From contig JANJGN010000052.1 of NCBI GenBank assembly GCA_026770705.1, positions 1,612,001-1,676,000 of the forward strand: 64,000 nt of DNA, in the 5' to 3' direction. Positions 5,762-29,430 of this stretch are shown here, piece by piece. Positions within the stretch are counted from its first letter, which is position 1; the number at the start of each line of letters is the position of its first letter. The DNA comes from Isurus oxyrinchus (Eukaryota). The notes under the pieces were generated by a model that did no database searches, was not told the DNA's origin, and was given only the letters and a program-made list of their open reading frames with translations. The position numbers and the translations under genes are program-made.

Positions 5762-6058
5762 ATTGCACAGTTAGTATGAGGGTCTGCTCCGATGAAACAG
5801 ATGGATATCTCACTCTGCAGCTGAGAGTGTGTCCGTGGTGTTTGAGTGATGGGATCAGGGTCAGAACAGAAGTATAGGTCAGAGTGACACCATGCTGAGT
5901 TACAGTGTTTGAGACTGATCCAGGTACGTCAGTGGGAGTGTCCCAGGTTAAGACAGGTGCTGCTGTTCCATTGCACATTGTGTTGAAGGTGCAGCTTACA
6001 TCCACACGCTTTCCTGCAATAATTTCAGCAGGGAATATCGTGGGTTTATCTGTGAAAT
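5762..6058 (-). CDS. Gene A Siglec domain-2-type C2 exon (DFTDKPTIFPAEIIAGKRVDVSCTFNTMCNG...LTVQ)
   Basis: 297 nt, phase 1-1, ttag/gtaaga; carries the extra B-C loop Cys (C-x5-C) that in Siglecs bonds to the V domain. Confidence 0.9.
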
Positions 6059-6429
6059 CTAACAGACAGGGAATGGATCCTTTTAGAGAAATATAATGTG
6101 AAGCATCAGTTCAAATAGAAACCACAGTCCCATAACAGAAAGCACTTTTACAAGGATGATATCAGAACTGAGATGTTTTAACGATCCTGATAGACTGTTA
6201 GACACGATTCGAGAGATCGATGGGAGTGGAATACATTTAATCATTGATATTAAAGTGAGTTTTAAATGTTGCTTTAGGACTGAACTGGAAGCTATCAGCA
6301 GGTTATTGAGAATCAGACAGTGTGTTATAATATGCTGTGTTTTGTGTTAATATGTAAACGTCACAGTTTGTGTTATTTCCCATTGAGTGTTGAATGTGAA
6401 TTGTTGAGTAATTATAACACAGCACTTAC

Positions 6430-6798
6430 CAGAAACGTGAAGCCGGGTTACAGGGTAATAGTTATGGCTCGGACCATTGTCAAATTCTATTCTGAAAAAA
6501 TAAGGTCCTGCATCTTCCCGTCTGATGTTGTTTATAATCAGGGAACAGTCGCCATCTTTCAGGTCTCCAGACAGCCGGGTCCGATGGTGGAACCGTGGTA
6601 ACTCGTGACTGTGATCCTTGGAGTGAAAGGCAATGGGAGCCCAGGGAATCTGTTTCTCATTATTAAACCAGACTCCATCTCGCGGTTGGTTTTCCAGACA
6701 CGATGGATAACTGTAATGAAATGGAATCTGTACACACGAACCTTCCTGCACTGTCACCTCTCGTGGAGTGTCACCTTTCCACTCTTGTGAGGGTTCAG
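6430..6798 (-). CDS. Gene A Siglec-type V-set exon 2
   Basis: 369 nt, phase 1-1; N-terminal W, GSCVQIP, DCSL, YFFR (essential Arg position); B-strand Cys replaced by Phe. Confidence 0.9.
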
Positions 6799-6849
6799 CT
6801 GGGGAGAGAAATCTCAATATTTATCTCTGGATGGTTTGTGGATCCACTG

Positions 6850-7725
6850 AACCCGATATTTACAGATGAGGCTGAATTGGGGGGATGGTCAATACTGAGG
6901 AGGACTGCAACAAATTGCAGGATGATATACATTCTGATGAAGAATCATACGGACTCGAAACATTAACTCTGTCTTCCTCTCCACAGATACTGTCAGACCT
7001 GCTGAGTTTTTCCTGCAATTTTTGTTTTAGTTACAGATTTCCAACAGCTGCAGAATTTTGCTTTTACATTACAGAAAGATATTAATAAACTTGCAGAATG
7101 GGCAGGTCATTGACAAATGAGTTTCTACGTTAATAAATGTGAGGCATTACATTTTGTTCAGGAAAATGAGGAGCTTGTATCTTACCTCGAAAATAAGAAT
7201 CTAATTGGGGTAGAGGAACAACGTGATCTGGGCCGGAAATACAGGAATCAGTAAATGTGGGGACACAGGTTAACAAGGGAATTAAACAATCAAACTAAAC
7301 ACTCAAGATTATTTCTCCAGGGATTGAATTGAAAAGTAGAGAAGTGATGTGAAACTTGTCCTGAACCTGGTCTGTCTGCACCTGGAGTCACGTGTGCAGT
7401 TCTGGTCCCCATATTGTAAAAAGGATATAGAGACACTGGAGAGGGTGGTAAAAAGCTTCACAAGGATGATCTCAGCAATGTGAGGCTTTACCTATCAGGA
7501 GAGGCTGAACAGGCTGGGTCTCTGTTCTCTTGAACAGAGAAGGTTGAGGGGTGACCTCATTTGACCTTTGAAGTAATGAAAGGTTTTGATCGAGTAGACA
7601 TGGAGAGAGTGTTTCCACTCCTCACAATGAACAAAACCAGAGGCTGACAATATAACATCCTCACTAATAAATCCAATGGGGAATTCAGAAGAAAATTATT
7701 TTCCCAGAGACTGGGGAGAATGTGT
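6850..7725 (+). mobile_element. CR1-type LINE 3' fragment with a nested Penelope-like end (6933-7065)
   Basis: EEDCNKLQDDI resumes after the insert (gaaagatattaataaacttgcagaatgg); typical CR1 ORF2 tail follows. Confidence 0.7.
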
Positions 7726-8454
7726 ACTTAAAGAATCACTTCATTGGCTGTGAATCAGTTTAGGATCGTCCTGAGGTGGTGAAAGGCGCTATGGAAATGT
7801 GAGACTTGCTTTTGTATTTTGAAAGCAGGTTTCCAAGATTGAGATGGGAACTGAGAGGTAACAACAATCAGCAGCAACTTTCCTATTTTCAAACTTGGTG
7901 GGGAATGTGTCACTGAGCTGAATACACTTTCACTCCCAGACCCTTGAATTGCCAACACTGGGGTGTGGGTGATGGAGCAGCCCACAGCTCATGGAACCCT
8001 GGCTCATCATTCTCTCAGAGATCTGGGTCACTGATCCCATTGCTCTCTGTGGGAGCTTCCTGTGTACAAACTCACTGCCACGTTAGACAGTGACTATACT
8101 TCAAGAATTTCTTCATTGTCTGTGAAGTGATTTGGTACGTGGTGAAAGGTGCTATAGAAATGCAAGTCTTTACTTTGTCGATTTGCCAGACTTTTAAATG
8201 GGGATTAGAGAGTTCTATGGGAGTGGATAACCTGATAACATTGATGGACACAGTCAACACATTTAACCATTGATATTAAAGTGAGTATTAGACGTTGCTT
8301 TAGGACTGAATTGGAAGCTATCACCAGGTTATTGAGATCAGACAGTGTGTTATAATAAGCTGTGTTTTGTGTTAATATGTAAACGTCACAGTTTGTGTTA
8401 TTTCCTACTGAGTGTTGAATGTGAATTGTTGAGTAATTATAACACAGCACTTAC

Positions 8455-8823
8455 CAGAAATGTGAAGCTGGGTTACAGGGTAATAGTTATGTCTCGGACC
8501 ATTGTCAAATTCTATTCTGAAAAAATAAGGTCCTGCATCTTCCCGTCTGATGTTGTTTATAATCAGGGAACAGTCGCCATCTTTCAGGTCTCCAGACAGC
8601 CGGGTCCGATGGTGGAACCGTGGTAACTCGTGACTGTGATCCTTGGAGTGAAAGGCAATGGGAGCCCAGGGAATCTGTTTCTCATTATTAAACCAGACTC
8701 CACCTCGTGGTTGGCTTTCCAAATGTGCTGGATAACTGTAATGACATGGAATCTGTACACACGAACCTTCCTGCGCTGTCACCTCTCGTGGAGTGTCACC
8801 TTTCCACTCTTGTGACAGTCCAA
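8455..8823 (-). CDS. Gene A Siglec-type V-set exon 1
   Basis: 369 nt, phase 1-1; GSCVQIPC, DCSL (Siglec B-E intrasheet disulfide pattern), YFFR. Confidence 0.92.
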
Positions 8824-10182
8824 CTGGGGAGAGAAATATCAATATTTAACTCTGGATGTTTTTTTGATCCATAATTCTTGATATCCACTCCCTCCATCAC
8901 TGGGGCACAGTGGCTGCAGTTTGGACCATCTACAGGACACACAAGTAACTCCCCAAGGTTTCACAATGGATCGATGAGAGTCCTGGACACAGGAGTGGAC
9001 AAGTTCATTCTACCTTGGTTCATGGTCCTCAGGACTCTATTTAGTTTTTTCAAATTATTCATTCATGGGATTTATTACCCATCCCATGTCCATCAGAGGC
9101 ATTTAATAGTCAACCACATTGCGGTGGGATTGGAGTGATATGTAGGCCACACTGGGTAAGGGTGGCAGATTTCCTTCCCTGAAGGTGATCAGTGAACCAG
9201 GCTTTTTAATCCCATTCATCTGCCATGATGGAATTCACACCCAGGGCCCCAGAGCATCACCCTGGGCCTCTGGAATACTAGCCCAGTGACAATACCTCTC
9301 TGCTACCGCTTCCCCTTAGTGAAGCCAGTCTTCTACCCAACACAGTGTCTACAAGACGCACTATTTGAGATCCATTCAATGCTGATTTACAAGACAGGAC
9401 AATGGATTAGGAGCCCTCAGAACTCCCCCCATTATCACCGTCATGAATCACTAATTAGCCTAACATTCCTGTCTGCTCTTCAACACAGCTGATTGAATCA
9501 GATTAGCCAATCTGATTGGTGTTCATTCCCTCTTCAACTTTTAAGGAATCACCAATCACTCGGCCTCTAGTTATTCCCCTGCCCACAAGAGGGAACATTC
9601 TCTGTCTACCCAGTCAACCAAAACATTTCATCTAATCCTAGTGGTGCTTGAGTATATAGTCGGGAATCCAGGGCAATGGAGCCTCAGGAGAAGAGATGGA
9701 AACGCTGTGAGGTGGAATGTCACTGAGGCCATCCGAGTTGAAGCGACTTTTGGAGAGAATTCCAAGGCAAGATCTTCGAAGTTGAAGATTGGAATCCCTC
9801 ATGAGAGAAACAGAGTTTCAGTGAGATTGGTTGACTGACAGTGTTCACTGATGTCCGGGTGGGTTGTTGTGAAATCCATGGGATCTGTCTTGGTCGCGTT
9901 TACAATTTAATGAATAATGTGGCTGTGAGACCACAGTTTGTCTGTTAATTCACATGAGCTAATGTTAATCCAGAATGTTAGGGTATAAGGTGGATATTGT
10001 GAATTATTTTATCTTTCTGAGCTGGTGCAGTCAAGTTTATTTCTGTTTGTTTAAAATCCATGGAATTTTGTAGCTTTATTCTCTTCGCAAGTGTCTTAAA
10101 TCTCAAACCTCTTCTACTTGAAACAAAATATTATTGGTTCCTAACTATAAATTTTCAAAAAAATTGGGTGTCTGTTCCTCCA

Positions 10183-11408
10183 TCAGCAACTCTTCAGAAT
10201 CCTGCTGAAGTCACGGATATTTCAGAAGGACAGGGAACAAGAAGTTTCTGGTATCAGCGTTTTGTGTGGGGCCCAGTTCAGTTTGAACAAATAAACAACA
10301 CCATCTTTGAAAGTCATGAACCCACCGCAGCGGCACCTCCGACACATGCAGAGCTCAGGCGAGAGGCGCTTTGTTAGTGTGTTTCACAGTGTCTGCTGGA
10401 GTAGGGTCAGTGCTGAGAGGGTCTGCTCAAGGATCATAACAACCTGCACTTGCACCTTCCAAGTAATAAGATTTTGTAAATGTATTCATTCATGGGATGT
10501 GGGCGTCGCTGCCAAGGCCAGCATTTGCTGCCCATCTCTAATGTCCCGTGACATAATCTCTGTAGCAGAGTAGAGACAATCATGATCACTCAGGATATTT
10601 GACATCTATCCACAAGAGCAGCTTAGGCTTCCTTCTCTCTTTCAGTTATCTTACTCCCTTATTGAAGTTTCTAGCATGGTGAGAACTGGATGGTTTGCTC
10701 GGACATTTCAGAGGAACCACGTTGCTATGAGTCTGGAGTCACATGTAGGCCAGACCAGATATAGACGGCAGATTTCCTTCCCTACAGGCCATTAGTGAAC
10801 CAGATGGGTGTGTATGACAATCGATGATAGTTTCATGGTCTCCATTACTGAGACTAACTCCCATTAGTGTAAACAGAGTGAACAGTTTTCCATTGATCCC
10901 ACCTTTCCCGTTCTCTCCGGTATTTTACACACTATTGCTCGATAATTTGATTCTGCCAAGGACCCCTTGGAAAATTATGGACACCAATTAGACAACCGAT
11001 GGAATAAGGAATCTCGTTGGATCCTCATTGTCTGAGGAATCTCTATGCATTCTCATTGTCTAAGGAATCTCTTTGGATCCTCATTGTCAAAGGGATTATT
11101 TCTGATCCAAACCCCATATTGTTGTATTGTTGATTCCGATGCAGCATTGTAGACTGACTTGTCCCCAAGCTCAGCACTGACCCTACTCCAGCAGACCCTG
11201 TGAAACACACTAACAAAGTGCCTCTAGCCTGAGCTCTGCATGAGTCGGAGGTGCCACTGTGGTGGGTTCATGACTTTCAAAGATGGTGTTGTCATTTTTT
11301 TTGTTCCAACTGAACTGGGCCCCACATGAAGTGTTGATACCAAAGACCTTGTGTTCCCTGTCCTTCTGAAACATCTGTGATTCAGCAGGATTCTGAAGAT
11401 TTGCTGAT
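10183..11408. repeat. Local inverted repeat, arms ~10183-10418 and ~11170-11408
   Basis: Arms align as reverse complements; both yield the ...PPTHAELR.EALC ORF on opposite strands. Confidence 0.85.
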
Positions 11409-12280
11409 AAGGGTCTTAAATTGTCTGATTGTTGATTGATACAACACAGGAGGAGCTCATGTGACCCATCGTGCATGTGCTGATTCTTTCCCAATTCCTC
11501 TCCAACACCTTTCGCACATTCCTGCAAATTTCCCTTCAAGTATTTATCCAGTTCCCCTTCTGAAAGTTCCTGTTGAATCTGCTTCCACCGCTCTTTCAGG
11601 CAGTGAGGCAATGGTCTCTCTCTGAGCTGCAAAGTGCCCAGATTCCGTGAAATTTAAACTATGCAGCAGATCAGAGACACTCATGATAACTAAGAATATT
11701 TGACACCTTTACACACAGACAGTTTTGCCTCCCTTCTCTCTTTCAGTTATCTTGCTCCCTTATTGAAGTATCTAGCAAGGTGAGAATGGACAGGAAGTGT
11801 GACACTGAACAGCCTGTCTATTCTAGGAGCTGCTGTGCTGTCTTCATGGGCAATTTTGAATAAAGGCAGCAAAGGATACAAATTTCAGGCCATTGCTATC
11901 GGAGACCTAACATTAGGATAGACTTCATCCCCCAGTTTTTATCCGTGCTTCTCGACTCAACCCATCACTCCCCATCGCTCACTGACCAACGTCCGATAGC
12001 ACCTGGATTTTAAGATTCTGCTCTCGCTGCTACAACCCTGCCTATCCCTGTAAACTCCTCCAGCCCCTACAACCCTGCAAGACCACTGGTCTCCTCCAAT
12101 TCTGCTGTCAGACAGGGAGTCAGTGTATATCAGTGAGCACAGGGGTGATGGGTGAATGGGACTTGGTGTGAGTTTGTACACTGGCACACTGCTGAATCAG
12201 TTCCCTATCAGAGCTCAATAAGAATGATCTTTTACAAAGACTATTAACCATAAATCTGTCTGAGCTGACAATGGTATTAC

Positions 12281-12320
12281 CTTGGAGAAGTGACAGGAGG
12301 AAGTAAGATTTCCCGATCAT
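12281..12320 (-). CDS. Gene A signal-peptide exon MIGKSYFLLSLLQ(G); exon with UTR 12281-12362
   Basis: ATG, hydrophobic core, CAAG/gtaat phase-1 donor, ctttcag acceptor upstream. Confidence 0.9.
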
Positions 12321-12770
12321 TGTCCACTCCCAGATATTTCCTCAGCTTCTAACTCTGAAGTTCTGAAAGAGAAAGGAGTTAATGAGACTTCACCTCTTGT
12401 CCGACAGCTCTCGAGAGATCAGAACTGCTTTTAGACAATATCTTCACAGACAAATTTGATTCTCTGTGGGATGATAGGTGCTCTGCAGAGAGTTACAAGG
12501 CTTTAAGAAAGAAAAACACTGAAGGACTTGCATTTCTATAGCACCTTTCACCACCTCAGGACACCCCAAAGCTCATGTCCCTGCTCTTCTCTCATCCCTT
12601 GAGCTAGAAAGATGTTCTGTACAACAGACTTGAGCCTCACACCCAGATCTCAATAATCAGTAGAAATCTTTCAAAGGCATCAATCATTGGAATCTGTCTT
12701 TATAAAGTCACAACATCAACAAAGGACGGTGTTGGTGGTGGAAGTGAATTCCAATCGTTCCGTTACTTAC

Positions 12771-12912
12771 CCAGGACCTGTCCGACTGCTCGCCTGGGGA
12801 GGAACTGCCCACACGCTCTGCTTGGGCTGAATGACCTCTTCCTGTGCTGATCCATCTGTGTATTTAATTAGAAAGGATTGATGTGTCTCTGTGAGACAAA
12901 ATGAGGAAGTTG
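12771..12912 (-). promoter_or_regulatory. Gene A non-coding first exon and proximal promoter with PU.1/ETS-type site AAAATGAGGAAGT (12898-12910)
   Basis: CTGG/GTAAGT donor; block conserved in three copies; the TSS is not determinable from sequence. Confidence 0.6.
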
Positions 12913-12989
12913 GAACAAAGTGAGTGAACAGCACTTTGCTGTGCACTGTCAGTAAACCCTGTGTCTGTATAAGAATATAAGAACAGAAC

Positions 12990-15920
12990 AAGTAGGATCA
13001 GCTGGACACCCTGACATTTTCACTCCTTATATTCCATCCACTCATTTTTTTATCCACTCACTGAAACTATTTATCTCCCTCTGCAGCCTCTTTGTGTCCT
13101 CCTCACAACTTGCTTTCCTGCCCAGCTTATATATTTCCTACCTATCTTCACCATACAGTCAGAAAATCTGCCGACAGTACAGTCAGTCCCTTCATCCAAG
13201 TCACTAATGTAGATTGTGAATAGTTGAGGCCTCAGCACTGATCCCTGTGGCTCTCCACTAGTTACAGTTTACCAAGCTGAAAATCACCCATTTATCCTGG
13301 CTCTCTGTTTCCTGTCAGTTAGCCAGTCCTCTATCCAAATTAATATATCCCCCCCGACACCATCCAATTTCACCCTGTGCAGTATCCTTTGATGTGGCTC
13401 CTTATCGAATGCCTTTTGGAAATGCAATGTCATGAAGAGATATTTGTGTGTAAAATGTGCTTGGAAATTATTAATAAAATAGAATTCTAGTGGTGGTCCA
13501 TGTATAGGTGTGTGTCTGGGTGTGTCTTAATTGGATTAAAGCCAACTGGTCTGTGTGTTTTGATGTTTAATAGTTTTGAGATGTTAATTGGGTGAATTGT
13601 GAGGAGAACAGTAAATTGTTCATTTGCAATTGTTGAATAAACCATTCCAGACAGGGGGTAAAATCTTGCACCTAGTTAGAAGGAGCCAAAAGATGTGTTT
13701 TTTCTTGAACTTACTAATGAAATTGGTGCTATGAAAGGGGGTTTTATTGTTCGAAGAGGTGGAGTTCAGAAGACCGAGTGATACAATGGAAAATTTACAT
13801 TCAAAGGGAAAGCTAGCTATATAAAGGAAGGAGTTTGTGTGTGTGAGGCAGGAGCATTTCAGACCTAACCAGCCTGTAGCCTCCAACCAACTTCTAAAGG
13901 AACCTCATTCGGAATTCATAATGTCAAATGTGCTTTGCCTGGTGTCTACATTATGTCAATGGTTCATTGTTGCCTTAGGAGAGATTTATGTACGGGTGAT
14001 TAATTTGGGGATTTGTTAAAATGTTATTATAGTAGTTATTTGTAGCCAATGTGTATGTGTTAAATTTGTTGTTAAATTAATAAATGGTTTATTTAGTTTT
14101 ATATAAAAAACCCACAATCCTCGGTGGTCTTATTCCTACTGAATTCAAAGTCTTCATCTCGACATTACAAACAGCAAAATTGGGTTACGACAGTTGTTTC
14201 AATTTTCCCTCTGGGATTTGAACAACTCAGCCTTTACCCTTGGCTGTGTCATAGTCCCTAATACACCACATCTACAGGTTCCCCTTTATCCAATCCACTT
14301 GTTACATCCTCGAGGAAATCTAATTATTTTTTCAAACATGATATCCCTTTCACAAACCCATGTTGACTCTGTCTGATTGAATTATGGATTTCTAAATGTC
14401 CTGCTGCTCCCTCCTTCATAATGAATTCTGGTATTTTCCCAATGACAGATGTTAGACTAACTGACCTGTAGTTTCTTGCTTTCTGCCTCCTCCCTTTATT
14501 GAACAGAAATGTTTCATTTATGTTTTTCCAATCCGCTGGGACCTTCCCATAATCTAAGGAATTCTGGAAGATTACAACCAATGCATCCACCGTCTCTGCA
14601 GCCATTTCCTTTCAGACCCTCACGTTCAGGCCGTCTGCTCCATGGGACTTGTCAGCATCTGTCTCATTAGTTTTCTTAATACTTTTTCTCTGGTGATAGT
14701 GATTGTTTTATGTTCCTCCCTCCTTGTTGCACCGTGACTTTCTCCTGCTATTGGGATGGTTTTAGAGATTTTTACTGTGAAGACAGACACAAAATTCTTG
14801 TTGAAAGTCTCTGTCATTTCCTGTTTCCCATTATTAATTCCCCAGTCTGATTTTCTATGTGTCCCATTATTACTGGAGCTTCTCTCTTATTTTAATGTAC
14901 AACATCTCACTGTCATTGTTTATGGTTCTTGCTAGTTTACTCTCATATCATCATTTCTGCCCCCTTATATTTCTTCCCTCACTTTTCTGGTTTCTCAAAT
15001 ATTCCCAATCTCCAGCCTATCACTAAGCATCCCAACATTGCCGGCTTTATCTCACAATTGGATACCGTCCTTAGCTTCCTGAGTTAGCCGCCGATGCTCC
15101 ATCCTTCTTATAGATTCTTTCTTTCTTACTGGAAAATATCTTCATTGGAATTTATGAAACATCTCTTTAGACGCCTATTACTCTTCACCTACCCACCCCC
15201 CTTTAACCTGCTGTCCCACTCTACTTGGGCCGACTCTACTTTTAACCCTTGTAATTGCCTTTAGTTAAGTTTATGACACTAGCTTAAGACCCAAGTTTCT
15301 AAACTGAATATTAAATTTCAACACCGTATGATTACTCTTCCCTTGAGGGTCCTTTACAATGAGATGTTAATTAGTCTTGTCTCATTAAACATTGCCAGGA
15401 CTAAAACAGCCTCTTCCCTGATTGGTTCCATGTTGGATTGTTCTAAAATACTGTCCTGAATACAATCTGTATAACCTCGCTGAAAGCTACATTTGCTAAT
15501 CTGATTTGGCTAATCCATATGACGATTGAAAACTCCCATGATTAATGTGGTGCCTTTCTCATAAACCTCCTCATGTATTGATTTATAATCTACCCCTGCA
15601 GTGTAACTACATTCAGGGGGGAGTATAAACCAACCCACCAGTGATTTCTTTCCCTTGCAATTCCTTATATTCACCCAAACTGACTGTGCATCTTGACATC
15701 TGAGCCAAAATCATTTCTCACTACTTTACAGGTCTCATCTTTTATTAACAGAGCGACCCCACCTCCTTTTCATTTTTCCTATCCTTTCAAAGATTCCAAA
15801 TATCCTTCAATTTTCAATTTCCAACCTTGGTCACTTTGCAACCAACTCTCTGCAGTGTCCATCTTATCGTACCCATTAATCTCTATTTGTGCTATAACTT
15901 CATTCATTTGTTCCAACTTT
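12990..15920 (-). mobile_element. Degenerate CR1 LINE ORF2 (endonuclease/RT), interrupted by a solo LTR
   Basis: Minus peptides VPADWK...NYRSVSLTSVIGKI...SQHGFVKG.SCL. Confidence 0.8.
13428..14255. mobile_element. Probable solo LTR
   Basis: Starts TG, interrupts the CR1, and is similar to 17988-18744. Confidence 0.55.
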
Positions 15921-17051
15921 ATATTTTATATATTCATTCTTCCATGGGAAGTGGGCATCACTGGCTAGGCCAGCATTTATGGCCCATCCTTAATTACCTT
16001 GAGAAGGTGGTGGTGAGCTGCCTTCCTGACCCTCTGCACTCCATGTGGTGTAGGTACACCCACAATGCAGTTAGAGAAGGAAGTCCAAGATTTTGACCCT
16101 AGTGGCAGTGAAGGGACGGCGATATATTTCAAAATCAGGATGATGTGTGTCTTGGAGGCGAACTTCCAGGTGGTGGTGTCTGGGCATTTCAATCCCTTGT
16201 GACAATAAATGTAATATTATAGAAAATGCAAAGGCTTCTTGTAATCTATCACAGAATAAACAAGTTGCAGAATTCAGAAAGCACTTTCTGAAATGTCAAC
16301 AAAGTTCAGTGACATCACATTTCTGCTAATTACTATTCGGCCATGTTGGCTGCACGCAGTCAGGCAGTCCCTCGGTTGTGATGTGTCCACACAGCAGTAC
16401 TGGGATGCATCAGCATCAAAGGACATGCTTAGTTGTTGCCGTGCAATGCATTTATTGCGAGGCTGTTGCACACACGCCCTGTCGATGGACCCTCCGAATT
16501 ACCATTCTGAATCGAGGCAAATCAACTTTCCTGCAACAACTTGCATTTATATGGCACACTTAATGTAACAAACTGTCCCCAATCTCTTCAGGGGATTGTC
16601 ACCTACATATAAATCCATCTCAGAGACACATAATGAGGTATTAGGGACAGGTGACAAAAAGCTGATTTCACAAAGCCAGTTAATNNNNNNNNNNNNNNNN
16701 NNNNNNNNNNNNNNNNNNNNNNNNNNNNNNNNNNNNNNNNNNNNNNNNNNNNNNNNNNNNNNNNNNNNNNNNNNNNNNNNNNNNNNNNNNNNNNNNNNNN
16801 NNNNNNNNNNNNNNNNNNNNNNNNNNNNNNNNNNNNNNNNNNNNNNNNNNNNACTGAATCTCTGTCCCCAATGACTCAGCATCAAGTCGTCACTGGGGAA
16901 ACATTTCATTCCAAACCACACCAACCACAGACCCATTCAGTCCCTTCCTCCCTCTCTCCCCCTCTCCCCCAGTGGGTTGTCTCATGTTCCCAAGAATCTT
17001 CATCCCTGCCACCATCCACAAACCTCCTGACCACCTCTGCCTTTTTCACGC

Positions 17052-17300
17052 TCAGTTTCTCTTGAATCTGATCTGTGCGTATTCCGTCTGCTCTTCCCTG
17101 TGGACAGACCCATCACCACTGGGCACCCTGAAGACTTAGGGATTGGCGTAGAGAAGCTCGTCGGGATTGTCAGGGTTCCCATGTCCAGCATCGCCTCCCA
17201 CTGCACATTCAGAGACACCCCGGGGAGCTGGGGTCTCCCCCTCGCTAGTTGTGTCTCTGGTTGTGTTCCGGGGCTCAGTAATCAGCACGTTCTGTTTACC
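17052..17300 (-). pseudogene. Orphan Siglec terminal tail exon with in-frame stop (…LLYANP*VFRVP…TEYAQIRFKRN*)
   Basis: 249-nt paralog of 58791-59039; TAA at 17138-17136 where the 20.1-kb copy has CAA. Confidence 0.85.
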
Positions 17301-17444: not shown

Positions 17445-17860
17445 GCAGTGCAGTGCTCCCTCAGTACTGACCCTTCGATAGTGCAGCACTTCCTCAATGC
17501 TGACCATCCAACAGTGCAGCACTCCCTCAGTACTGACCCTCCGACAGTGCAGCGCTCCCTCAGTACTGACCCTCCAACAGTGCAGCGCTCCCTCAGTACT
17601 GACCCTCCGACAGTACAGGTCTTCCTCAGTACTGACCCTCTGACAGTGCAGCACACCCTCAGTACTGACCCTCTGACAGTGCAGCACTCCCTCAGTACTG
17701 ACCCTCCAACAGTGCAGCGCTCCCTCAGTACTGACCCTCCGACAGTACAGGTCTTCCTCAGTACTGACCCTCTGACAGTGCAGCACTCCCTCAGTACTGA
17801 CCCTCTGACAGTGCAGCACTCCCTCAGTGCTGACCCTCTGTCAGTCTCGCACTCCCTCGG
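17445..17860. repeat. 33-bp minisatellite
   Basis: Tandem units of the same family. Confidence 0.9.
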
Positions 17861-18880: not shown

Positions 18881-18962
18881 CTGGTGCTTCACAGAGAGTG
18901 GACTGGGAGTCAAGGCAATGTCACTGGTCCCTGAAACTCTCTCCTCCATCGCTGTCTTTCTC
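18881..18962 (-). CDS. Orphan cytoplasmic exon RKTAMEERVSGTSDIALTPSPLSVKHQ
   Basis: 82 nt, phase 2 to 0, intact splice sites, same peptide as 60386-60467; no TM exon nearby upstream. Confidence 0.65.
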
Positions 18963-20135: not shown

Positions 20136-20384
20136 TCAGTTATGCTCGAACCTGATCTGTGCGTATTCCGTCTCCTGATCCCTGTGGACAGACCCATCAT
20201 CACTGGACATCCTCAATACTTGGGGATTGGCGTAGAGAAGGCCGTTGGGATTGTCGATGTGCCAATGTCCAGCATCGCCTCCCAATGCACCTTCAGAGAG
20301 ACCCCGGGGAGCTGGGGTCTCCCCCTCACTAGTTGTGTCTCTGGTTGTGTTCCGGGCCTCAGTAATCAGCACGTTCTGTTTACC
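20136..20384 (-). CDS. Orphan terminal tail exon: degenerate ITIM (LLYANP), intact ITSM (TEYAQI)
   Basis: Open 249-nt exon with ctctgtag acceptor; paralog of 58791-59039. Confidence 0.65.
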   Translation of the reverse strand, partial: GKQNVLITEARNTTRDTTSEGETPAPRGLSEGALGGDAGHWHIDNPNGLLYANPQVLRMSSDDGSVHRDQETEYAQIRFEHN

Positions 20385-20529: not shown

Positions 20530-21200
20530 CAGTGCAGTGCTCCCTCAGTACTGACCCCCCCGACTGTGCAGCACATCCTCAATAGTGACCCTCTGTCAGT
20601 CTCGCACTCCCTCTGTACAGTGCAGCACTTCCTTAGCACTGACCCTCTGACAGTGCAGCACTCCCTCGGAACTGACCCTCCATCAGTGCAGCGCTCACTC
20701 AGTACTGACCCTCCAACAGTGCAGCACTCCCTTAGCACTGACCCTCTGACAGTGCAGCACTCACTCAGTACTGACCCTCCATCAGTGCAGCACTCCCTTA
20801 GCCCTGACCCTCTGACAGTGCAGCACTCCCTCACTACTGACCCTCCAACAATGCAGCACTGCCTTAGCGCTGACCCTCTGACAGTGCAGCACTCACTCAG
20901 TACTGACCCTCCAACAGTGCAGCACTCCCTTAGCCCTGACCCTCTGACAGTGCAGCACTCCCTCAGTACTGACCCTCCAACAGTGCAGCACTCCCTTTTC
21001 ACTGACCCTCTGACAGTGCAGCACTCCCTCAGTACTGACCCTGCAACAGTGCAGCACTTCCTTAGCACTGACCCTCTGATGGTGCAGTACTCCCACATTA
21101 CTGACCCTCTGACAGTGCAGCACTCACTCAGTACTGACCCCTCCAACATTGCAGCATTCCCTCTGCACTGACCCTCTGACAGTGCAGCACTCCCTCAGTA
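20530..21200. repeat. 33-bp minisatellite
   Basis: Tandem units of the same family. Confidence 0.9.
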
Positions 21201-21422
21201 ATGATACCACAGATTGTCGACATGGACCATATGGCCAGAGACCTGTATTGGGAACTCTTATCGCCTGAGTTTCAGCCTCCGAGGTGAGGGGAAGGGGTCT
21301 AATCCCACAGAGCCATTGGAGAAGCTTCATGACTACAGCTGCCCAAATATGAGCTGACAGATCACACATGGTAAACGTTTTGCTGAGAGCACAAAACATC
21401 CTCAATCTTCTCACTGATTACC

Positions 21423-21563
21423 CACTTCCTCATTTTGTCTCACAGTGACACATCAACCCTTTCTAATTAAACACACAGAGGGATCAGCACAGGAAGAGGT
21501 CATTCTGCCCAAGCAGAGCGGGTGGGCAGTTCCTCCCCAGGTGAGCAGTCGGACAGGTCCTGG
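21423..21563 (+). promoter_or_regulatory. Gene B promoter (PU.1 motif CACTTCCTCATTTT 21423-21436) and non-coding first exon (donor GTAAGT at 21564)
   Basis: Inverted copy of 12771-12912. Confidence 0.6.
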
Positions 21564-22013
21564 GTAAGTAACGGAACGATTGGAATTCACTTCCACCACC
21601 AACACCATCCTTTGTTGATGTTGTGACTTTATAAAGACAGATTCCAATGATTGATGCCTTTGAAAGATTTCTACTGATTATTGAGATCTGGGTGTGAGGC
21701 TCAAGTCTGTTGTACAGAACATCTTTCTAGCTCAAGGGATGAGGGAAGAGCAGAGACATGAGCTTTGGGACATCTTGAGGTGGTGAAAGGTGCTATAGAA
21801 ATGCAAACCCTTCATTGTTTTTCTTTGTTAAAGTCTTGTGACTCTCTGCAGAGCACCTATCATCCCACAGATAATCAAATTAGTCTGAGAAAACATTGTC
21901 TAAAAGCAGTTCTGATCTCTCGAGAGCTGTCGGACAATAGGTGAGGTCTCATTAACTCCTTTCTCTTTCACAGCTTGAGAGTCAGAAGTGGATGGAATAT
22001 CTGGGAGTGGACA

Positions 22014-22053
22014 ATGATCGGGAAATCTTACTTCCTCCTGTCACTTCTCCAAG
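22014..22053 (+). CDS. Gene B signal-peptide exon MIGKSYFLLSLLQ(G)
   Basis: Identical peptide to the gene A leader; phase-1 donor gtaat. Confidence 0.9.
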
Positions 22054-23298
22054 GTAATATCATCGTCAGCTCAGACAGATTTATGGCTAATAGTCTTTGT
22101 AAAAGATCATTCTTATTGAGTGTGATTGGGAACCGATTCAGCAGTGAGCCAGTGTACAAACTCACACCAAGTCCCATTCACCCATCACCCCTGTGCTCAC
22201 TGATATACACTGACTCCCTGTCTGACAGCAGAATTGGAGGAGAATAGAGATCTCAGAGGGTTGTAAGAACTGGAGGAGGTTACAGAGATAGGGAGGGGAG
22301 AGGGTGGATTGCGGGTAAGAAATCAATGATGAGAATTTGAAATTTGAGTCATTGCTGGACTGGGAGCCAATGTAGGTCAGCCAGTGACAGGGGAGCGATC
22401 GGCTGAATAGAGAAACAGGGATAAAAACTGGGGAATGAGGTCTATCCTGATGCTAGGACTCGGATAACAATGCCCTGAAATTTTGTGTCATTTGCTGATT
22501 TTAGTCAGAATTTCCCATGAAGACAACACAGCAGCTCCTAGAATAGACAGGCTGTTCAGTGTCACACTTCCTGTCCATTCTCACCATGCTAGATACTTCA
22601 ATAAGGGAGCAAGATAACTGAAAGAGAGAGGAAGGTAAAGCTGTCTGTGTGTAAAACTGTCAAATATTCTGAGTTATCATGATTGTCTCTGACCTGCTGC
22701 AGAGTTTAAAGTTCTCAGAACATTAGCACTTTGCAGCTCAGAGAGAGACCATTGACTCACTGCCTGAAAGGGCGGTGGAAGCAGATTCAACAGGAACTTT
22801 CAGAAGGGGAACTGGATAAATACTTGAAGGGGACATTTTGCAGGGCTGTGGAGGAGAGAGCAGAGGTTAGAGTGGGACTTATTGGACAGAACTTTCAAAG
22901 GTCCAGCACAGGCTCGATGGGCCAAATGACTTCCTTCTCTTCCAGATCATTCTACAATCTGATAAATTAAGCCCCACATCAATAACTCTTAAGGCTCCTG
23001 CTGCAGGGATGGATCTTTGAGAAGGACAGAGAATAAGAGGTTTCTGGTATCATTTTCATATTGTACTGAATCTTGCTGCCAGAATGTTTGGTCACCGCTG
23101 ATCACCATGTTGTGTTTTTATAATGATATAAAGGCACCAGCCACTGATACGGAATTGGGTAAATACATTGTGGGTTCAGTTATTTTGAATAGGGACATGA
23201 GAACAGATGTACAAGGATAGAAAGCTGGGAGACACCTGCAGCCAAACTGTGTGAGCTGTGTTCTGCTCACAGACCAAAGTGAAACTTGGACTGGATGG

Positions 23299-24569
23299 TG
23301 TTATCATCCCAGCTGATGTTACTACTGGGCAAGTCAGATCCCAGGGTGGAACTCAGCTTGATAGGTCCTAACTTATATTTTTTATTTAGGAATGTGGAGT
23401 GCGGCTACTGAACAGAGTCACAGGAGTCATCTGATGAACTTCTAACAAAAGAATAAAACATTTATTAAACTAGGAAAGACAAACTATATGACATTACTCC
23501 TTCACCCAGACCTATACATTTACAGTTTCATAAGGATAACACAATTACAATAACTAACTTATACTCTCATGTTCACACTAAGTACACAGTCGATGTAAAA
23601 CAGTAGACGACCTGGGGTCAGGGACACCACATTCTGAAACCAAGTGACAGAACCCACTTGGAACAAATGCTCCGGGTCCCTCCTCAACTGACTCTAGACG
23701 CTTGTTACACCGTGAGGCAACTGGTCTAACGAAACTGTATCTTTCACATGAGAGTTTCCAATCTCTACTCACCAAGTGCTCTCTTTGGAATCTTCTCCAA
23801 CATGACACTTTCACTCAGAGACCTTCCACAAGGGTCCACTTTCACTATTTCAAACTCTCCTTCCCATGTTCCTGCCCCCTGGATCGCCACGTGCATTCAG
23901 CCTTCCTTCCACGCCCTGTCTGTCCAATGCTCAGCCGTGTCAATGGAACACCATGGCTTCACATGGCCGTAGTAATGAGTCACCAACCTGTGGTGTCTCC
24001 TAGGATCTTCTGGCTTCTCATAAGCCTTTTTTGCTTTGGGTCTGTGTCCTTTTGCCCATTCTCTTTTAGCTTGGATCCCTCCTCTGAACCTCAACCTTAA
24101 CTTGACTTAACAGGACCTTGTCCAGATTCCTGATCTTCCTTGGACGAGAAGGTCTTCTTGGGCCCTTTCTCCTGTTCCACTCGATAGTTTTGGCTTCTTC
24201 TTTACTTTGGGACTGACTATCTGTCCCGCTCCTTTGCTGCTTCTCCTGGCAACTCCTTTCAACAGAACTGAAAGTACTTTTCTGTTTTTCTCGGTCTCTG
24301 TGGGTCCTTCCCTCTGCATCACTGTTGCTAGGCAACAGCACAGTTTCTTACACCTTGTATTTGGTTTGACTTCCCTTCAACAGTCACCAAACCCCATTAG
24401 ATTGCTGGCTTCTATAAAAATGAAACTAAAAGTCAAGTTTCCCCCTTTCTTAACACACAAATACAGAAATCAAACTAAACTTGAACTTAAAGATAGACCT
24501 TATGCCTAACACACACAAATACACATAGAACTTCCTTAACCTATCCCCAGTTCCTAAAATCACATGACA
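23299..24569. mobile_element. LTR-like insertion
   Basis: TG...CA termini; no counterpart seen in the matching intron of gene A. Confidence 0.45.
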
Positions 24570-24623
24570 CACTTCCCCTCGAGTGATGTCATGCTGCTAT
24601 CCCTGAAAGGCATATTACAACAG

Positions 24624-25552
24624 TGTTATCACTTGACAGGTGATGTGTGCCAGGCAGACCAAGTCCATGAGAGAAAGGTGGTCACACGATCATAATGATT
24701 TTGCAATTTGTATTTATTATGAGATGTGTGCACTGAATTCAGAAGCAATAATTACTCTAGGAACTTTAGAGATTTGAAAATTAAATTAAAATACTTGCTC
24801 TCAGAATAAATGATATCATGCATGTACATGACACTACAATTACCATTTTAATAATAATTCTTAAAATTCCGAAATAACCTGACTCCCAGTTACACTCCCT
24901 TTAAGGCAACGGTCCAAAAATAGAGTTTATATTTAAAACAAACCCAGCAAGTTAACACAATATAAAAGCAATACCCTGCACAGAGGAATTCCAAGTGGCT
25001 TTTCCCCAACTTCAGTTCTGTTGGATAGCAGGCTTGTGCACAAATGCTAGTGGTTTCATTAAGACTATATCACACACTCGTGTTAGATCTTACATGGCAT
25101 TCTGACACATAGCCTTTCATTCTCCCTGATAGATATATATTTCTCTCTTTGTAACATGAAAATTCTATTGTTCCAAATGTTTTTGAAACTGTATCTTCCT
25201 CATAACAAATTCTTTTGTGGTGCCCATATTGCCAGGAGCCTTTGAGAAAAATAAGCACATTCCTTAGTCTTGCTTATCTGGCTAGTTGGAAACAAACTAA
25301 GATTCCTTTGAAATCCAACAACCCCTTCATTGAAATAAAAATGCAAATTCTCTTCATACCTTCCATGCTAAGCAGCATCCATGTTTACTCAATAGCATGT
25401 CAAGCACCTAGCTCCTTTTGATCATTTTAAACTTCCAATCTAATTAACTCCAAATGTACTTAAATCACATGCAGACCCATCATGCGTACCCCCATAAACC
25501 TACTTCACAATATACTATAAAATTTTATGAAAATTATTATACTTTCATCACA
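24624..25552. mobile_element. Solo LTR
   Basis: TG...CA termini, 4-bp flanks acag/atag, colinear with 57610-58499. Confidence 0.6.
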
Positions 25553-25943
25553 ATAGGAACCACTGCCTTAGACACTGAGGATCTAGGACAGCTAGGCCAA
25601 TTCATGATTCATGATGGTGATAATGGGGGAATTCTGAAGGCTCCTAATCCATTGTCCTAGTTTGTAAATCAGCAGTGAACTCACTTCAATTAGTGTGTCT
25701 TGTAGACACTGTGTTGGGTGGAAGACTGGCTTCACTAAGCAGGTTCCTGAGGGCCATGAGCCAATGTAGAATGAACTTGTCCACTCCTGTATCCAGGATT
25801 CTCTTCAATGTGTTGTGAAACATTGGGGCATTCATTGTGAGTCCAGACTGCAGCCACTGTGCCCCAGTGATGGAGGGGGTGGATTTTGAGTCTAGTGGAT
25901 TGACAAAACATTCAGAGTTAAATATTGATATTTCTCCCCCTAG

Positions 25944-26309
25944 CTGGACTACCACAAGTGTGGAAAGGTGACACTCCACGAGAGGTGACAGCGCAGGAAG
26001 GTTCGTGTGTACAGATTCCGTGTCATTACAGCTACCCATCATATTTAGTACCGAGATCACCTGTTGGAATCTGGTATATGAGAAGGAATTGGGAAAGATG
26101 GTCTATAGCCTTTCACTCCAAGGATCACAGTCGCAAGTTACCACGGTTCCACCATCGGACCCGGCTTTCTGGAGACCTGAAAGATGGTGACTGTTCGCTG
26201 ATTATAAACAACATCAGACGGGAAGATGCAGGATATTATTTATTCAGAACAGATTTTGACAGCAGGAATAGATACAACGACCGTCCTGAAACCCAGCTTC
26301 ATGTTTCTG
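25944..26309 (+). CDS. Gene B Siglec-type V-set exon 1 (divergent loops)
   Basis: 366 nt, phase 1-1; GSCVQIPC, DCSL, YYLFR. Confidence 0.92.
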
Positions 26310-27189
26310 GTAAGTGCTGTGTTATAATTACTCAACAATTCACATCCAACACTCAATGGGAAATAATAGTGTTTGATTTGCTTGTTTTTTTGCCGTGTTA
26401 ACCAGCGTCACTATTTTTAATGATTTGTCTATTTCTGCTCCCAGATCCATGAGCTTATTGTGTGTGATTGAATCCACATCATAGCTGTAACGTAAACCGA
26501 GCTGAGGGGTGATGACACCTCCCCCCTGAGTAAAGTGTCTCCTCCCCACTACACCTTCCACCCCTCACACTGTCTGTGTAATCTCCCGTCCCATCCCCAG
26601 CCTCTCTTTCCCCTCCAAAGTCCTGCAACGTGTTTCCATCTCCCGAATCCGTTCCCATCTTTCCCGGAACTCCATGTTTGAATCCCTTCAATCAGGTTCC
26701 CACCCCAGCCACTGTGCTGAAACAGCTCTTATTTTTATTGAGCCAATGCCAAGCCCCGATACCGAGCGAGAGCCTCCTCATTTGCTGAGTTTAAGGTGAT
26801 GAGTCAGCCCCTTAGTCCGTAGAGGGGATTCTCCTCGGTAATGTGCAGCCTTGTTTGTGTCTCTCCACAAGCGCATGAGGGATTTGTACAGAGGCTGCAG
26901 CGCTGGAGGGGGTCTGCACAGGGGTCCTGGCCTGTCCTGAGCCAGTTTTAGCAAGGACAACTCTGGCCTTGGCAGCTGAAAGCCAGCCATTGGACAGACG
27001 GGGCCTGTCACAAGGAGCCTGTTAGTCACTCCCCCCCGTGTCTCCTGTGCTCGGATCCAGACCATGTTGGCTGGTGGATCTGGCTCAGGAAGGGTCCTCC
27101 CCATGGGACCCCCCGATGGAAGGTGGGTCGAGCGGGTCATTCACTTGCATGTTTATTCTGCAGCTTTAATATTTTAAGAAGGTAAGAAT

Positions 27190-27920
27190 GTAGGAACATA
27201 AGAAATAGGGACAGGAGCAGGCCATTCGGTCCCTCCAGCCTGCTCTCACTGATCTGGTTGCGGCCTTAACTCCATTTTCCTGCTTGTCCCCCAAACCCTT
27301 GACTCCCTTGTCGATCAAAAACCTGCCTCACTCAGCCTTGAGTCTATTCAATGGCCCAGCCTCCACTGCTCTCTGGGGAAGAGAATTCCACAGGCTAGCG
27401 CCCCTCTGAGAGAGGAAATTCCTCCTCATCTCAGTCTTAAATGGGAGAGCCCTCATTCCGAAACTGTGCTCCCTGGTTCTAGATTCCCCCACGAGGGGGA
27501 AACATCCTCCCAGCATCCACCCTGTCAAGCCCCCTCGGAATCGGATATGTTTCAATAAGCTCACCCCTCATTCTTCTAAACTCCAATGGATACAGGCCCA
27601 ACCTGCTCAACATTTCCTCACAGGACAAACCCTTTAATCCCAGGAATCAGCCCAGTGAAGCTTCTCTGAACTGCCTGTACACAATGATCCTGTTACAATC
27701 TCACTAACACCCTGTGCAGCTGTTGCAAGACTTCCCTCCTTTTATACTCCATCCCTTTGCAATAAAGACCAACATTCCACTTGCCTTCCTCATTCTGTGG
27801 TGTTCCTGAATGCTGACTTTCTGTGATTCATGTACCAGGACACCCAGATCCCTCTGTACTGCATTCTGCAGCCTGTCTCCATTTAAATTATATCCTGTTT
27901 TTCTATTCTTCCTGACAATA
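27190..27920 (-). mobile_element. CR1 LINE 3' fragment
   Basis: FKTEMRRNFLSQRGASLWNSLPQRAVEA and VQRDLGVLVH. Confidence 0.85.
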
Positions 27921-28039
27921 TAATTTGTTGCCATTCTCCTCAGTATTGACCATCCCCCCAATTCAGCCTCATCTGTAAATATTGGGTTCAGTGGATCCAC
28001 AAACCATCCAGAGATAAATATTGAGATTTCTCTCCCCAG

Positions 28040-28405
28040 CTGAACCCTCGCAAGAGTGGAAAGGTGACAATCCACGACAGGTGACAGTGCAGGAAGGTTC
28101 CTGTGTACAGATTCCATGTCATTACAGTTATCCATCGTGTCTGGAAAACCAACCGCGAGGTGGAGTCTGGTTTAATAATGAGGAATGGAGAACATCGTCT
28201 ATAGCCTTTCACTCCAAGGATCACAGTCACGAGTTACCACGGTTCCACCATTGGACCCGGCTGTCTGGAGACCTGAAAGATGGCGACTGTTCCCTGATTA
28301 TAAACAACATCAGACGGGAAGATGCGGGTCCTTATTTTTTCAGAATAGAATTTGACAATGGTCCGAGCCATAACTATTACCCTGTAACCCAGCTTCACGT
28401 TTCTG
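28040..28405 (+). CDS. Gene B Siglec-type V-set exon 2
   Basis: 366 nt, phase 1-1; GSCVQIPC, extra Cys in PSCL, DCSL, YFFR. Confidence 0.92.
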
Positions 28406-29133
28406 GTAAGTGCTGTGTTATAATTACTCAACAATTCACATTCAACACTCAATGGGAAATAACACAAACTGTGACATTTACATATTAACACAAAACACAG
28501 CTTATTATAACACACTGTCTGATTCTCAATAACCTGGTGATAGCTTCCAATTCACTCCTAAAGCAACCTCTAATACTCACTTTAATATCAATGATTAAAT
28601 GTATTGACTGTGTCCATCAATGTTATCAGGTTATCCACTCCTATCGATCTCTCTAATCCTGTCTCGAAGTCTGACTTAGCGACAGAAGAAAGATTCACAT
28701 TTCTGTAGCACCTTTCACCACCTCAGCATGGACCAAATCACTTCACAGCCAATGAGCTGATTCCTGAATTGTAGTTACTATTGTAATGTGGGAAACACAG
28801 CAACCAATTTGCATACAGCAAGCTCCCACAAATTGCAAAGTAAAAAATGGCCCAGATCGCTGAGGGACTGATGGGTTAGTGCACTCCAAACTCTGGTCTG
28901 CTCCACCACCCTCACCCACTATTATCAGTTCAAGTGTCTCGGAGTGAACGTGTATTAAGCTGAGAGACAGAAACACCAAAGTCTCAAAGCAGGAAATTCT
29001 CTCCTAATCATTGTAACCTCTCAGATCTGATATCATCCTTGTAAACGTGCTTTTTCTTGTGGGACTGTGATTTCTATTTGAACTGATGCTTCACGTTATA
29101 TTTCTCTAAAAGGATCCATTCTCTGTCTGTTAG

Positions 29134-29430
29134 ATTTCACAGATAAACCCACGATATTCCCTGCTGAAATTATTGCAGGAAAGCCTGTGGATGTAAGCTG
29201 CACCTTCAACACAACGTGCAATGGAACAGCAGCACCTGTCTTAACCTGGGACACTCCCACTGACGTACCTGGATCAGTCTCAAACACTGTAACTCAGCAT
29301 GGTGTCACTCTGACCTATACTTCTGTTCTGACCCTGATCCCATCACTCCAACACCACAGACACACTCTCAGCTGCAGAGTGAGATATCCATCTGTTTCAT
29401 CGGAGCGGACCCTCGTACTAACTGTGCAAG
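29134..29430 (+). CDS. Gene B Siglec domain-2-type C2 exon
   Basis: 297 nt, phase 1-1, near-identical to 5762-6058. Confidence 0.9.

What the first reader, a model, noticed from the sequence alone, without database searches (positions are those of the whole stretch)
5762..29430. Genes A and B form a head-to-head inverted duplication that could swap V domains between signalling ends
Seen: inverted homology of promoter, leader and intron (~11560-12912 vs ~21423-22830), of V exons with flanks, and of the C2 exon (5762-6058 vs 29134-29430). Inference: a crossover between the arms would invert the inner segment and move each V set from the inhibitory-type TM to the Arg TM and vice versa, while non-crossover events would homogenise them. 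Human SIGLEC11/16 has the same head-to-head layout with documented gene conversion.
Basis: partly seen in the sequence, partly recalled or inferred. Interest (0 to 1): 0.75.

Follow-up and report, generated by a model that had tools for sequence, protein, structure and literature searches.

The report
Shark Siglec paired receptors shuffling heads
Two shark immune-receptor genes of the Siglec type face away from each other and share near-identical outer domains but end in different signalling tails, likely because the whole gene family trades these outer domains by gene conversion, as human paired Siglecs do; a flip that swaps them is possible but untested.

Summary
The inverted homology is real, but patchy: about 4 kb in five blocks, 82-95% identical, longest perfect run 136 bp. 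Genes A and B are Siglec-like receptors of a shark (relatives 85-90% identical in white and basking shark). (1) The shared 'promoter' block starts with a copy of gene A's own first cytoplasmic exon. (2) Gene A carries a third tail class with YxN motifs, not the ITIM tail. (3) ITIM-class tail exons lie headless between A and B, cut off at a composite 33-bp minisatellite; B's original neighbour was probably an ITIM-class gene since deleted or collapsed in assembly. Exchange of outer domains is supported: the V exons are mosaic (p=0.00025), and across sharks the first C2-set domain groups by lineage rather than by tail class (AU p=0.001). But A and B are no more alike than same-orientation paralogs 57 kb away, and only two short targets (84 and 133 bp perfect) could swap the V sets by inversion. 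No data show the flipped allele, and orientation was not independently tested. Verdict: a new member of a known kind (SIGLEC11/16, SIGLEC5/14, CEACAM), mainly interesting as paired Siglecs in sharks.

The parts
502..606 (-). Gene A cytoplasmic exon 2 (YxN motif, VYENC); further tail exon(s) expected left of the window
   Evidence: tblastn with the tail of basking-shark model P0043, 88.6% over 35 aa, AG/GT ends
1118..1202 (-). Gene A cytoplasmic exon 1 (phase 2 to 0); source of the copies upstream of both leaders
   Evidence: block 953-1265 is 95% identical to 12606-12918 and 21418-21728
1897..1993 (-). Gene A TM exon, uncharged, 'Y class'
   Evidence: translation; class in homologues
3235..3516 (-). 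Gene A third constant Ig exon
4570..4851 (-). Gene A second constant Ig exon (donor GT abuts an N run)
5762..6049 (-). Gene A first C2-set exon; inverted arm 5730-6185, holds the 133-bp perfect match 5844-5976
   Evidence: 281/288 identical to B's
6430..6798 (-). Gene A V exon 2 (Siglec Arg kept; B-strand Cys replaced by Phe)
8455..8823 (-). Gene A V exon 1, mosaic: 5' flank and start like B-V1, body like V2
12281..12362 (-). Gene A leader exon (ATG at 12320)
   Evidence: same leader starts relatives P0053, P0077, P0020
12771..12855 (-).
   Evidence: 82/85 identical to the original
17055..17300 (-). Headless ITIM-class final tail exon (O2): TEYAQI kept, ITIM lost, in-frame stop
18881..18962 (-). 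Headless ITIM-class first tail exon
   Evidence: 79/82 identical to gene C's
20136..20384 (-). Headless ITIM-class tail exon (O1), resembling the first of the doubled tail exons in white-shark model P0031
20530..21204 (.). Composite 33-bp minisatellite; homology to the tail-type array ends at about 20614 and another array variant follows (candidate deletion or mis-join junction)
21479..21563 (+). Copy of A's cytoplasmic exon 1 upstream of B's leader
   Evidence: 80/85 identical
21974..22053 (+). Gene B leader exon (ATG at 22014)
25944..26309 (+). Gene B V exon 1 (divergent type, 70% aa to B-V2; Arg kept)
28040..28405 (+). Gene B V exon 2; best PDB match Siglec-5
29143..29430 (+). Gene B C2-set exon; inverted arm 29007-29462
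29754..29905 (+). Broken 3' half of a constant Ig exon (5' half missing, frameshifted)
31020..31159 (+). Gene B terminal exon: TM with Arg and a short tail without tyrosine ('R class')
   Evidence: 8 of 101 homologues carry this TM; one contig joins 29905 to 31020
58790..63632 (-). Gene C, 3' part: two constant exons, TM, tail exons with ITIM (LLYANI) and TEYAQI ('I class'); outside the finding, used as a same-orientation control

Best explanation
Genes A and B are oppositely oriented members of a shark Siglec-like receptor cluster that share near-identical leader, V and C2-set exons but end in different signalling tails, likely because the whole family trades these outer exons by gene conversion and unequal crossing-over. 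Shown: three tail classes exist (Arg-TM with short tail on B; uncharged TM with YxN tail on A; uncharged TM with ITIM plus TEYAQI on C), the V exons are mosaic, and the outer domains do not follow tail class across sharks. Inferred: B signals through an ITAM adaptor via its TM arginine, and exchange keeps ligand specificity matched between opposing receptors. Also inferred: the A/B head-to-head pairing is secondary. An ITIM-class gene X stood between them, facing away from B, and lost its head at the 33-bp minisatellite near 20.6 kb, leaving its doubled tail exons. An A-B crossover inversion would swap the V sets, but it is predicted to be a rare event rather than a working switch.
For: V domains: Pfam V-set and Ig_CD22 in 4 of 4; top PDB hits Siglec-5, -8, CD33, -7, -10, with the Arg aligned. 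All 101 longer homologues come from sharks and rays where a species is named (100 of 101). Tail classes; the Arg-TM is 89-93% identical in white shark and 78-82% in catsharks. First C2-set tree of 44 rows: a mainly lamniform clade (SH-aLRT 96) mixes R, I and Y; R needs 7 changes against a shuffled mean of 7.5; the AU test rejects one R clade, p=0.001. A catshark Arg-TM model and an ITIM model share an identical first V domain. Mosaic: 19 informative sites in 3 runs, p=0.00025; a 210-bp perfect run between A-V1 and A-V2, 1 of 20000 shuffles. No A-B excess identity. The headless tails match the doubled tail of white-shark model P0031; basking-shark model P0007 has TM and tail exons on the same strand ahead of the next leader. 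No V, C, TM or tail exon that could be X's head lies between 31.2 and 58.7 kb. The array is composite. A contig of one probable RNA run of a relative joins the exon donor at 29905 to the TM acceptor at 31020.
Against: Homologues are automated gene models and some are clearly read-through chimeras (P0007, P0021), which could inflate the mixing of tail labels. The C2-set tree has only 95 columns, with 4 of 41 branches starred, and A+B as sisters is not rejected (AU p=0.23). Informative sites cluster in one hypervariable loop and are not independent; selection can also make identity patchy. Single-breakpoint tests on the V1 and V2 arms were not significant (39/500 and 70/500), and the significant ones in the 5' and C2-set arms fall at the edges of homology. 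The deletion of X's head rests on one assembly and on protein models from other species, with no genomic comparison. Adaptor binding and sialic-acid binding are untested.
Confidence: 0.68

Rival explanations
1. Crossovers between the A and B arms recur in the germ line, so a 22-23 kb inversion that swaps the leader+V sets between the Arg-TM and the YxN tail segregates as a polymorphism.
For: The geometry works for crossovers in the C2-set exon or the V2 3' end. The C2-set exons are 97.6% identical. A's V domains are nearest to a white-shark Arg-TM model (95-96%), as a past swap would give. Inversions between oppositely oriented CEACAM subclusters are reported in mammals (PMC2832619). NAHR on matches under 50 bp is reported for repeats 5 kb apart (PMC2583991).
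Against: The swap-competent perfect matches are only 133 and 84 bp, about 23 kb apart; PMC2583991 gives a 20-fold drop at 134 bp and 300-500 bp for human meiosis. A and B are no more alike than same-orientation paralogs or another species' paralogs. The introns between the blocks are largely unrelated. An apparent SIGLEC11/16 inversion call turned out to be gene conversion (PMC12770363).
Confidence: 0.12
2. The head-to-head layout is an assembly artefact: the contig was mis-joined or collapsed in the 33-bp array at 20.5-21.2 kb, so B does not sit opposite A.
For: The junction lies in a repeat with at least nine arrays in this window. B is flanked by arrays on both sides. X's head is missing although lamniform relatives have it. 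No independent read crosses the junction.
Against: The junction is sharp, with diagnostic first and last tail-type units followed by a different variant, which a germ-line deletion gives equally well. Both flanks of the N run at 16685-16852 are collinear with two paralogous copies. A 2.8-kb minisatellite is assembled through at 46.5-49.3 kb, which suggests long reads (inference).
Confidence: 0.15
3. A and B are simply recent duplicates in a birth-and-death array, and their likeness reflects age rather than exchange.
For: Family-wide exon identities of 94-98% are similar to the between-species level.
Against: The V exons show switching ancestry along their length. Heads are near-identical while the TM exons of A and B share no detectable similarity, and the Arg-TM class is shared with catsharks, so heads and tails have different histories.
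Confidence: 0.05

Closest known systems
Primate SIGLEC11 / SIGLEC16 (PMC5701461; passages read)
   Same: Head-to-head genes about 9 kb apart (here the leaders are 9.7 kb apart), similar V and C2-set exons, fragmented conversion, one partner with a charged TM.
   Different: There the partner is ITIM-bearing and about 3 kb is continuously similar. Here A has a YxN tail, the homology is broken into five blocks, each gene has two V exons, and headless ITIM-class tail exons fill the spacer. The term 'inversion' does not occur in that paper's main text.
Human SIGLEC5 / SIGLEC14 and the SIGLEC14/5 fusion (PMC4042635; passages read)
   Same: Paired receptors with converted 5' regions; loss of one partner by a deletion between similar sequences.
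   Different: There the activating gene is lost by a gene-to-gene fusion. Here the inferred loss is the head of the ITIM-class gene, with the junction in a minisatellite.
Mammalian and Xenopus CEACAM paired receptors (PMC2832619, PMC5112662; passages read)
   Same: ITIM and activating genes in opposite orientation, conversion of ligand-binding exons, and inversions between subclusters proposed as the trace of intrachromosomal recombination.
   Different: Different family; those inversions are fixed differences between species over large distances, not a local 23-kb segment.
NCBI-annotated shark and ray 'SIGLEC10/12/13/14-like, CD33-like, MAG-like' models
   Same: Direct relatives, up to 90% identical in V; the same three TM classes in sharks.
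   Different: They are automated names only. My three literature searches on shark Siglecs found no paper describing the pairing or the tail classes.

Membership tests
Siglec | N-terminal V-set domain of Siglec type followed by C2-set domains | tested here: met
   Pfam V-set and Ig_CD22 above cut-off in 4 of 4 V exons, C2-set_2 in the next exon; the 18 best of 30 PDB sequences are Siglecs
Siglec | Essential F-strand arginine | tested here: met
   FFR aligns with Siglec-5 and Siglec-8 FFR; FFR or LFR in 4 of 4 V exons
Siglec | Extra cysteines for the intra-sheet and V-C2 disulfides (feature recalled; positions seen in the alignment) | tested here: inconclusive
   All three V cysteines align with Siglec-5 in B-V2 and are present in B-V1 and A-V1; A-V2 has Phe for the B-strand Cys. 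Bonds not shown.
Siglec | Sialic-acid binding | not testable with these tools
   needs a glycan array
CD33-related Siglecs | Orthology to the mammalian CD33r clade and its syntenic cluster | not tested
   Only similarity ranks: Siglec-5 55 bits, sialoadhesin 46, MAG 44, Siglec-15 32, CD22 28. No tree with mammalian Siglecs and no genome was available.
CD33-related Siglecs | Proximal ITIM plus distal ITIM-like motif in the inhibitory member | tested here: met
   Met for gene C (LLYANI, TEYAQI), against the signature quoted in PMC7226832
Inhibitory/activating pair of SIGLEC11/16 type (A with B) | One partner carries the ITIM-class tail | tested here: not met
   A's in-window tail is the YxN class. 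Its last exon is outside the window; in relatives it ends in motifs such as SVYGNV that fit the loose ITIM signature, so an inhibitory role is not excluded.
Inhibitory/activating pair of SIGLEC11/16 type (A with B) | One partner has a basic TM residue and no tail motif | tested here: met
   B's TM exon; criterion as stated in PMC6288428. Adaptor binding itself is untested.
Inhibitory/activating pair of SIGLEC11/16 type (A with B) | Concerted evolution of ectodomain exons | tested here: met
   Met family-wide; not specific to A and B
Recurrent NAHR inversion polymorphism | Both orientations present among haplotypes | not testable with these tools
   only short contigs were available and none spans the arms
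Recurrent NAHR inversion polymorphism | Long near-perfect inverted repeats (about 200-500 bp uninterrupted) | tested here: not met
   longest 136 bp; 133 bp in a swap-competent position; thresholds from PMC2583991

The most novel reading that the evidence does not exclude
Sharks run a three-way Siglec switchboard: the same pool of V exons is moved among an activating Arg-TM end, an ITIM end and a YxN end, and at this locus a live 22-23 kb inversion toggles whole V sets between two of these ends within a population, with minisatellite-bounded deletions removing the ITIM partner in some haplotypes.
Probability: 0.12. Interest if true: 0.72.

Novelty: new member of a known kind. Interest (0 to 1): 0.4.

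Why it matters
A paper on teleost Siglecs states that fish genomes lack inhibitory CD33-related Siglecs (PMC7226832). This locus and its relatives show ITIM-bearing and Arg-TM Siglec-like receptors with exchanged ectodomains in sharks. Paired Siglecs would then be either far older than mammals or independently re-invented, which a tree with synteny could decide. The locus also offers a compact test of whether oppositely oriented paired receptors exchange heads by conversion alone or also by inversion, which for CEACAMs has only been inferred from fixed species differences. The mechanism itself is known.

Tried and rejected
No whole genome is held for this window, so synteny and copy number could not be checked.

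Sequencing runs: 24 listed, all kept as contigs, best share 0.55. I laid 4 of the 24 on 21205-31880 only. No piece spans the stretch, the longest record shown is 674 nt, and 15 of 667 joints were shown, none changing strand. Because only B's side was laid, an inversion could not have appeared, and the array junction at 20.6 kb remains untested. Single-contig depths from about 200 to 3500 in one DNA run hint at many B-like copies, but there is no single-copy baseline, so I do not use this.

Rejected: reading the 12771/21479 block as a plain promoter or first exon (it is a tail-exon copy; use as a 5'UTR exon remains possible). Rejected: gene A truncated after its TM (two tail exons found). Rejected as less parsimonious: a simple inversion between inverted minisatellites that moved B, since it should leave X's head on the + strand beyond B and none is found. 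Rejected: gene C as the head of the headless tails, since it has its own final exon.

The single-breakpoint tests on the arms were uninformative. The Fisher value for array variants (6 of 9 against 0 of 29) is descriptive only, as units are not independent, and the pattern scored only part of the units. The V tree (50 rows) is poorly resolved.

Three look-ups of earlier scan findings returned nothing. Literature searches for shark Siglecs and a broader one gave no description of this family; subscription papers are not covered and no supplements were read.
Full report
Observation. A masked self-comparison and a more sensitive A-versus-B comparison confirm inverted homology between 5.7-12.9 kb and 21.4-29.5 kb. 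It comes in separate blocks: the 5' block (85.6%), a short upstream block (85.9%), V1 with flank (81.8%), V2 with flanks (94.9%) and the first C2-set exon with flanks (93.9%). A-V1 with its downstream intron also matches B-V2 with its intron (84.1%). About 4.1 of 7.2 kb of A's head and 4.0 of 8.1 kb of B's align. The longest perfect inverted matches are 136, 133, 126, 96 and 84 bp.

What the genes are. All four V exons score above cut-off for Pfam V-set and Ig_CD22. The best solved structures are Siglec-5, -8, CD33, -7 and -10, with the essential arginine aligned. A search among longer proteins gave 101 hits of 114 candidates; the 100 with a species name are all shark or ray models, the closest from white and basking shark at 85-90%. 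The window is therefore from a shark, probably lamniform (inference). Gene A (minus strand) is leader-V-V-C2set-C-C-TM-tail. Gene B (plus) is leader-V-V-C2set-(broken C)-TM with arginine and a short tail. Gene C (minus, 58.8-64 kb, 3' part only) ends in an ITIM and a TEYAQI motif. A-V2 has lost one conserved cysteine.

First correction: the 'promoter'. The shared 5' block begins with a segment that also occurs at 953-1265. Comparison with homologue tails shows that 1118-1202 is gene A's first cytoplasmic exon and 502-606 its second. The copies at 12771-12855 and 21479-21563 are 96.5% and 94.1% identical to it. White- and basking-shark models (P0049, P0045, P0007) also run from this exon into a leader, so the arrangement is older than this species. 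Whether the copy serves as a 5'UTR exon is untested.

Second correction: tail classes. The homologues fall into three TM classes: I (ITIM plus TEYAQI, like C), Y (like A, with repeated YxN motifs) and R (arginine, like B). R occurs in 8 of 101 proteins: 3 white shark, 5 catshark. Gene A is class Y. Its last exon lies outside the window, and in relatives it ends in a motif that fits the loose ITIM signature, so its sign is open. That YxN motifs bind Grb2 is recalled, not tested.

Third correction: the spacer. Three class-I tail exons lie on the minus strand between A and B (17055-17300, 18881-18962, 20136-20384), with no TM, C or V exon upstream of them on that strand before gene C's own final exon. 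They resemble, in order, the doubled tail of white-shark model P0031, which has V-V-C2set-TM in front. Homology to the neighbouring tail unit stops inside the 33-bp array. Units 20530-20614 carry the first and last diagnostic units of the tail-type array, then another variant follows (6 of 9 scored units against 0 of 29). The simplest reading, inferred, is that an ITIM-class gene X faced away from B and lost its head by one deletion between two same-direction arrays, in the germ line or in the assembly. B's V2 shares a loop type with P0031's V2, a weak hint of past X-B exchange. The flanks of the N run at 16685-16852 are collinear with two paralogous copies, so that gap does not look like an orientation error.

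Evidence for exchange. Among the four V exons, 19 informative sites fall into 3 runs (p=0.00025): A-V1 groups with B-V1 for the first 10 sites, then with A-V2. A-V1 and A-V2 share 210 identical bases (1 of 20000 shuffles). The sites cluster in a hypervariable loop, so the p-values overstate independence. For the cross-species test I labelled 72 of the 101 homologues (11 shark species; the 29 left out are rays, skate, sawfish, sawshark, sevengill and one unnamed protein). Of 64 C2-set domains, 20 without a recognised TM were dropped, leaving 44 rows including the two from the window. A mainly lamniform clade (SH-aLRT 96; 14 lamniform rows plus two others) mixes R, I and Y; R needs 7 changes against 7.5 shuffled; one R clade is rejected (AU p=0.001). 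A catshark R model and I model share an identical first V. The models are automated and some are chimeric, which weakens this.

Evidence on the A-B swap. Crossovers in the 5' block flip only the 9-kb spacer. Crossovers at the V2 3' end or in the C2-set exon flip 22-23 kb and would swap leader+V sets, so the geometry is right. Against a working switch: these targets have 84 and 133 bp of perfect match, below the 200-500 bp usually efficient in mammalian cells, although events on under 50 bp are reported for close repeats (PMC2583991, passages). A-B exon identity (leader 91.5, V2 94.5, C2-set 97.6%) is no higher than A-C identity in the same orientation 57 kb away (96.1-97.9%). Each window domain is nearer to a white-shark or basking-shark model than to its A/B partner. 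For a past swap: A's V domains are nearest to a white-shark R model, and A+B as sisters is not rejected.

Reads. All 24 listed runs are contigs. Four were laid on gene B. None spans the arms, so orientation is untested. One contig from a probable RNA run of a relative joins 29905 to 31020, exactly donor to acceptor, consistent with a spliced Arg-TM transcript; this is one contig from one run whose RNA status is a guess.

Comparison with what is known. SIGLEC11/16 are head-to-head about 9 kb apart with fragmented conversion (PMC5701461, passages). An apparent inversion call there was re-read as conversion (PMC12770363, passage). SIGLEC14 is lost by fusion with SIGLEC5 (PMC4042635, passages). 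PMC12632684 (one figure legend seen) describes the same geometry for gene-pseudogene pairs and has no Siglec mention. The charged-TM criterion is from PMC6288428 (passages). PMC7226832 (passages) says fish lack inhibitory CD33-related Siglecs and does not mention sharks; PMC8455134 (one passage) names Siglecs only in a list. Searches found no description of this shark family; the library lacks most subscription journals and I read no supplements.

Verdict. The locus works like a paired-Siglec cluster under concerted evolution; membership of the CD33-related clade is untested. The inverted pairing is real in this assembly and probably secondary; the V-swapping inversion is possible but unshown. 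New member of a known kind; interest 0.4.

Noticed in passing
window:12771-12855 and 21479-21563: A cytoplasmic exon has been copied in front of the leader exons, and the same order appears in white- and basking-shark gene models; it may have been recruited as a 5'UTR exon across the family.
   Followed up: partly
window:17055-20384: Both headless final tail exons have lost the ITIM (LLYANP in place of LLYANI) but keep TEYAQI. White-shark models carry the same ITIM-less variant in open tails, which suggests a fourth signalling variant.
   Followed up: partly
P0007, P0008, P0009: Relatives carry 1 to 7 tandem V domains per model, which is unusual for Siglecs (recalled: one, two in Siglec-12); alternative splicing or V-exon copy-number variation is possible.
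   Followed up: no
window:29643-29905: A contig of a probable RNA run covers the intron in front of the broken C half-exon and joins it to the TM exon. Contigs in three of the four runs carry one more base at 29852 than the window.
   Followed up: no
window:31425-31765: B's 3' region is 73-77% similar, inverted, to the regions downstream of the ITIM-class tails (16181-16339, 58597-58741, 56334-56458), so R and I genes share an old 3' end although their TM exons show no similarity.
   Followed up: no
window:45162-45368: A decayed V-like stretch (29% to B-V2, E 2.7e-5) on the minus strand lies beside open frames at 43761-45190 that look retroelement-like to me (recalled); Pfam gave nothing above cut-off.
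   Followed up: partly
window:4984-5642, 17446-17838, 20530-21204, 31891-32376, 38599-39008, 41027-41232, 49826-49927, 52012-52295, 59599-60172: Nine arrays of one 33-bp minisatellite in both orientations, plus 37-, 43-, 62-, 72- and 24-bp tandem arrays; likely substrates for rearrangement.
   Followed up: partly
window:4402-4567, 16685-16852, 51063-51281, 52556-52697, 53916-54093, 55011-55254, 63219-63346: Seven N runs of 128-244 bases, most at or beside simple-repeat tracts; two abut exon donor sites.
   Followed up: partly
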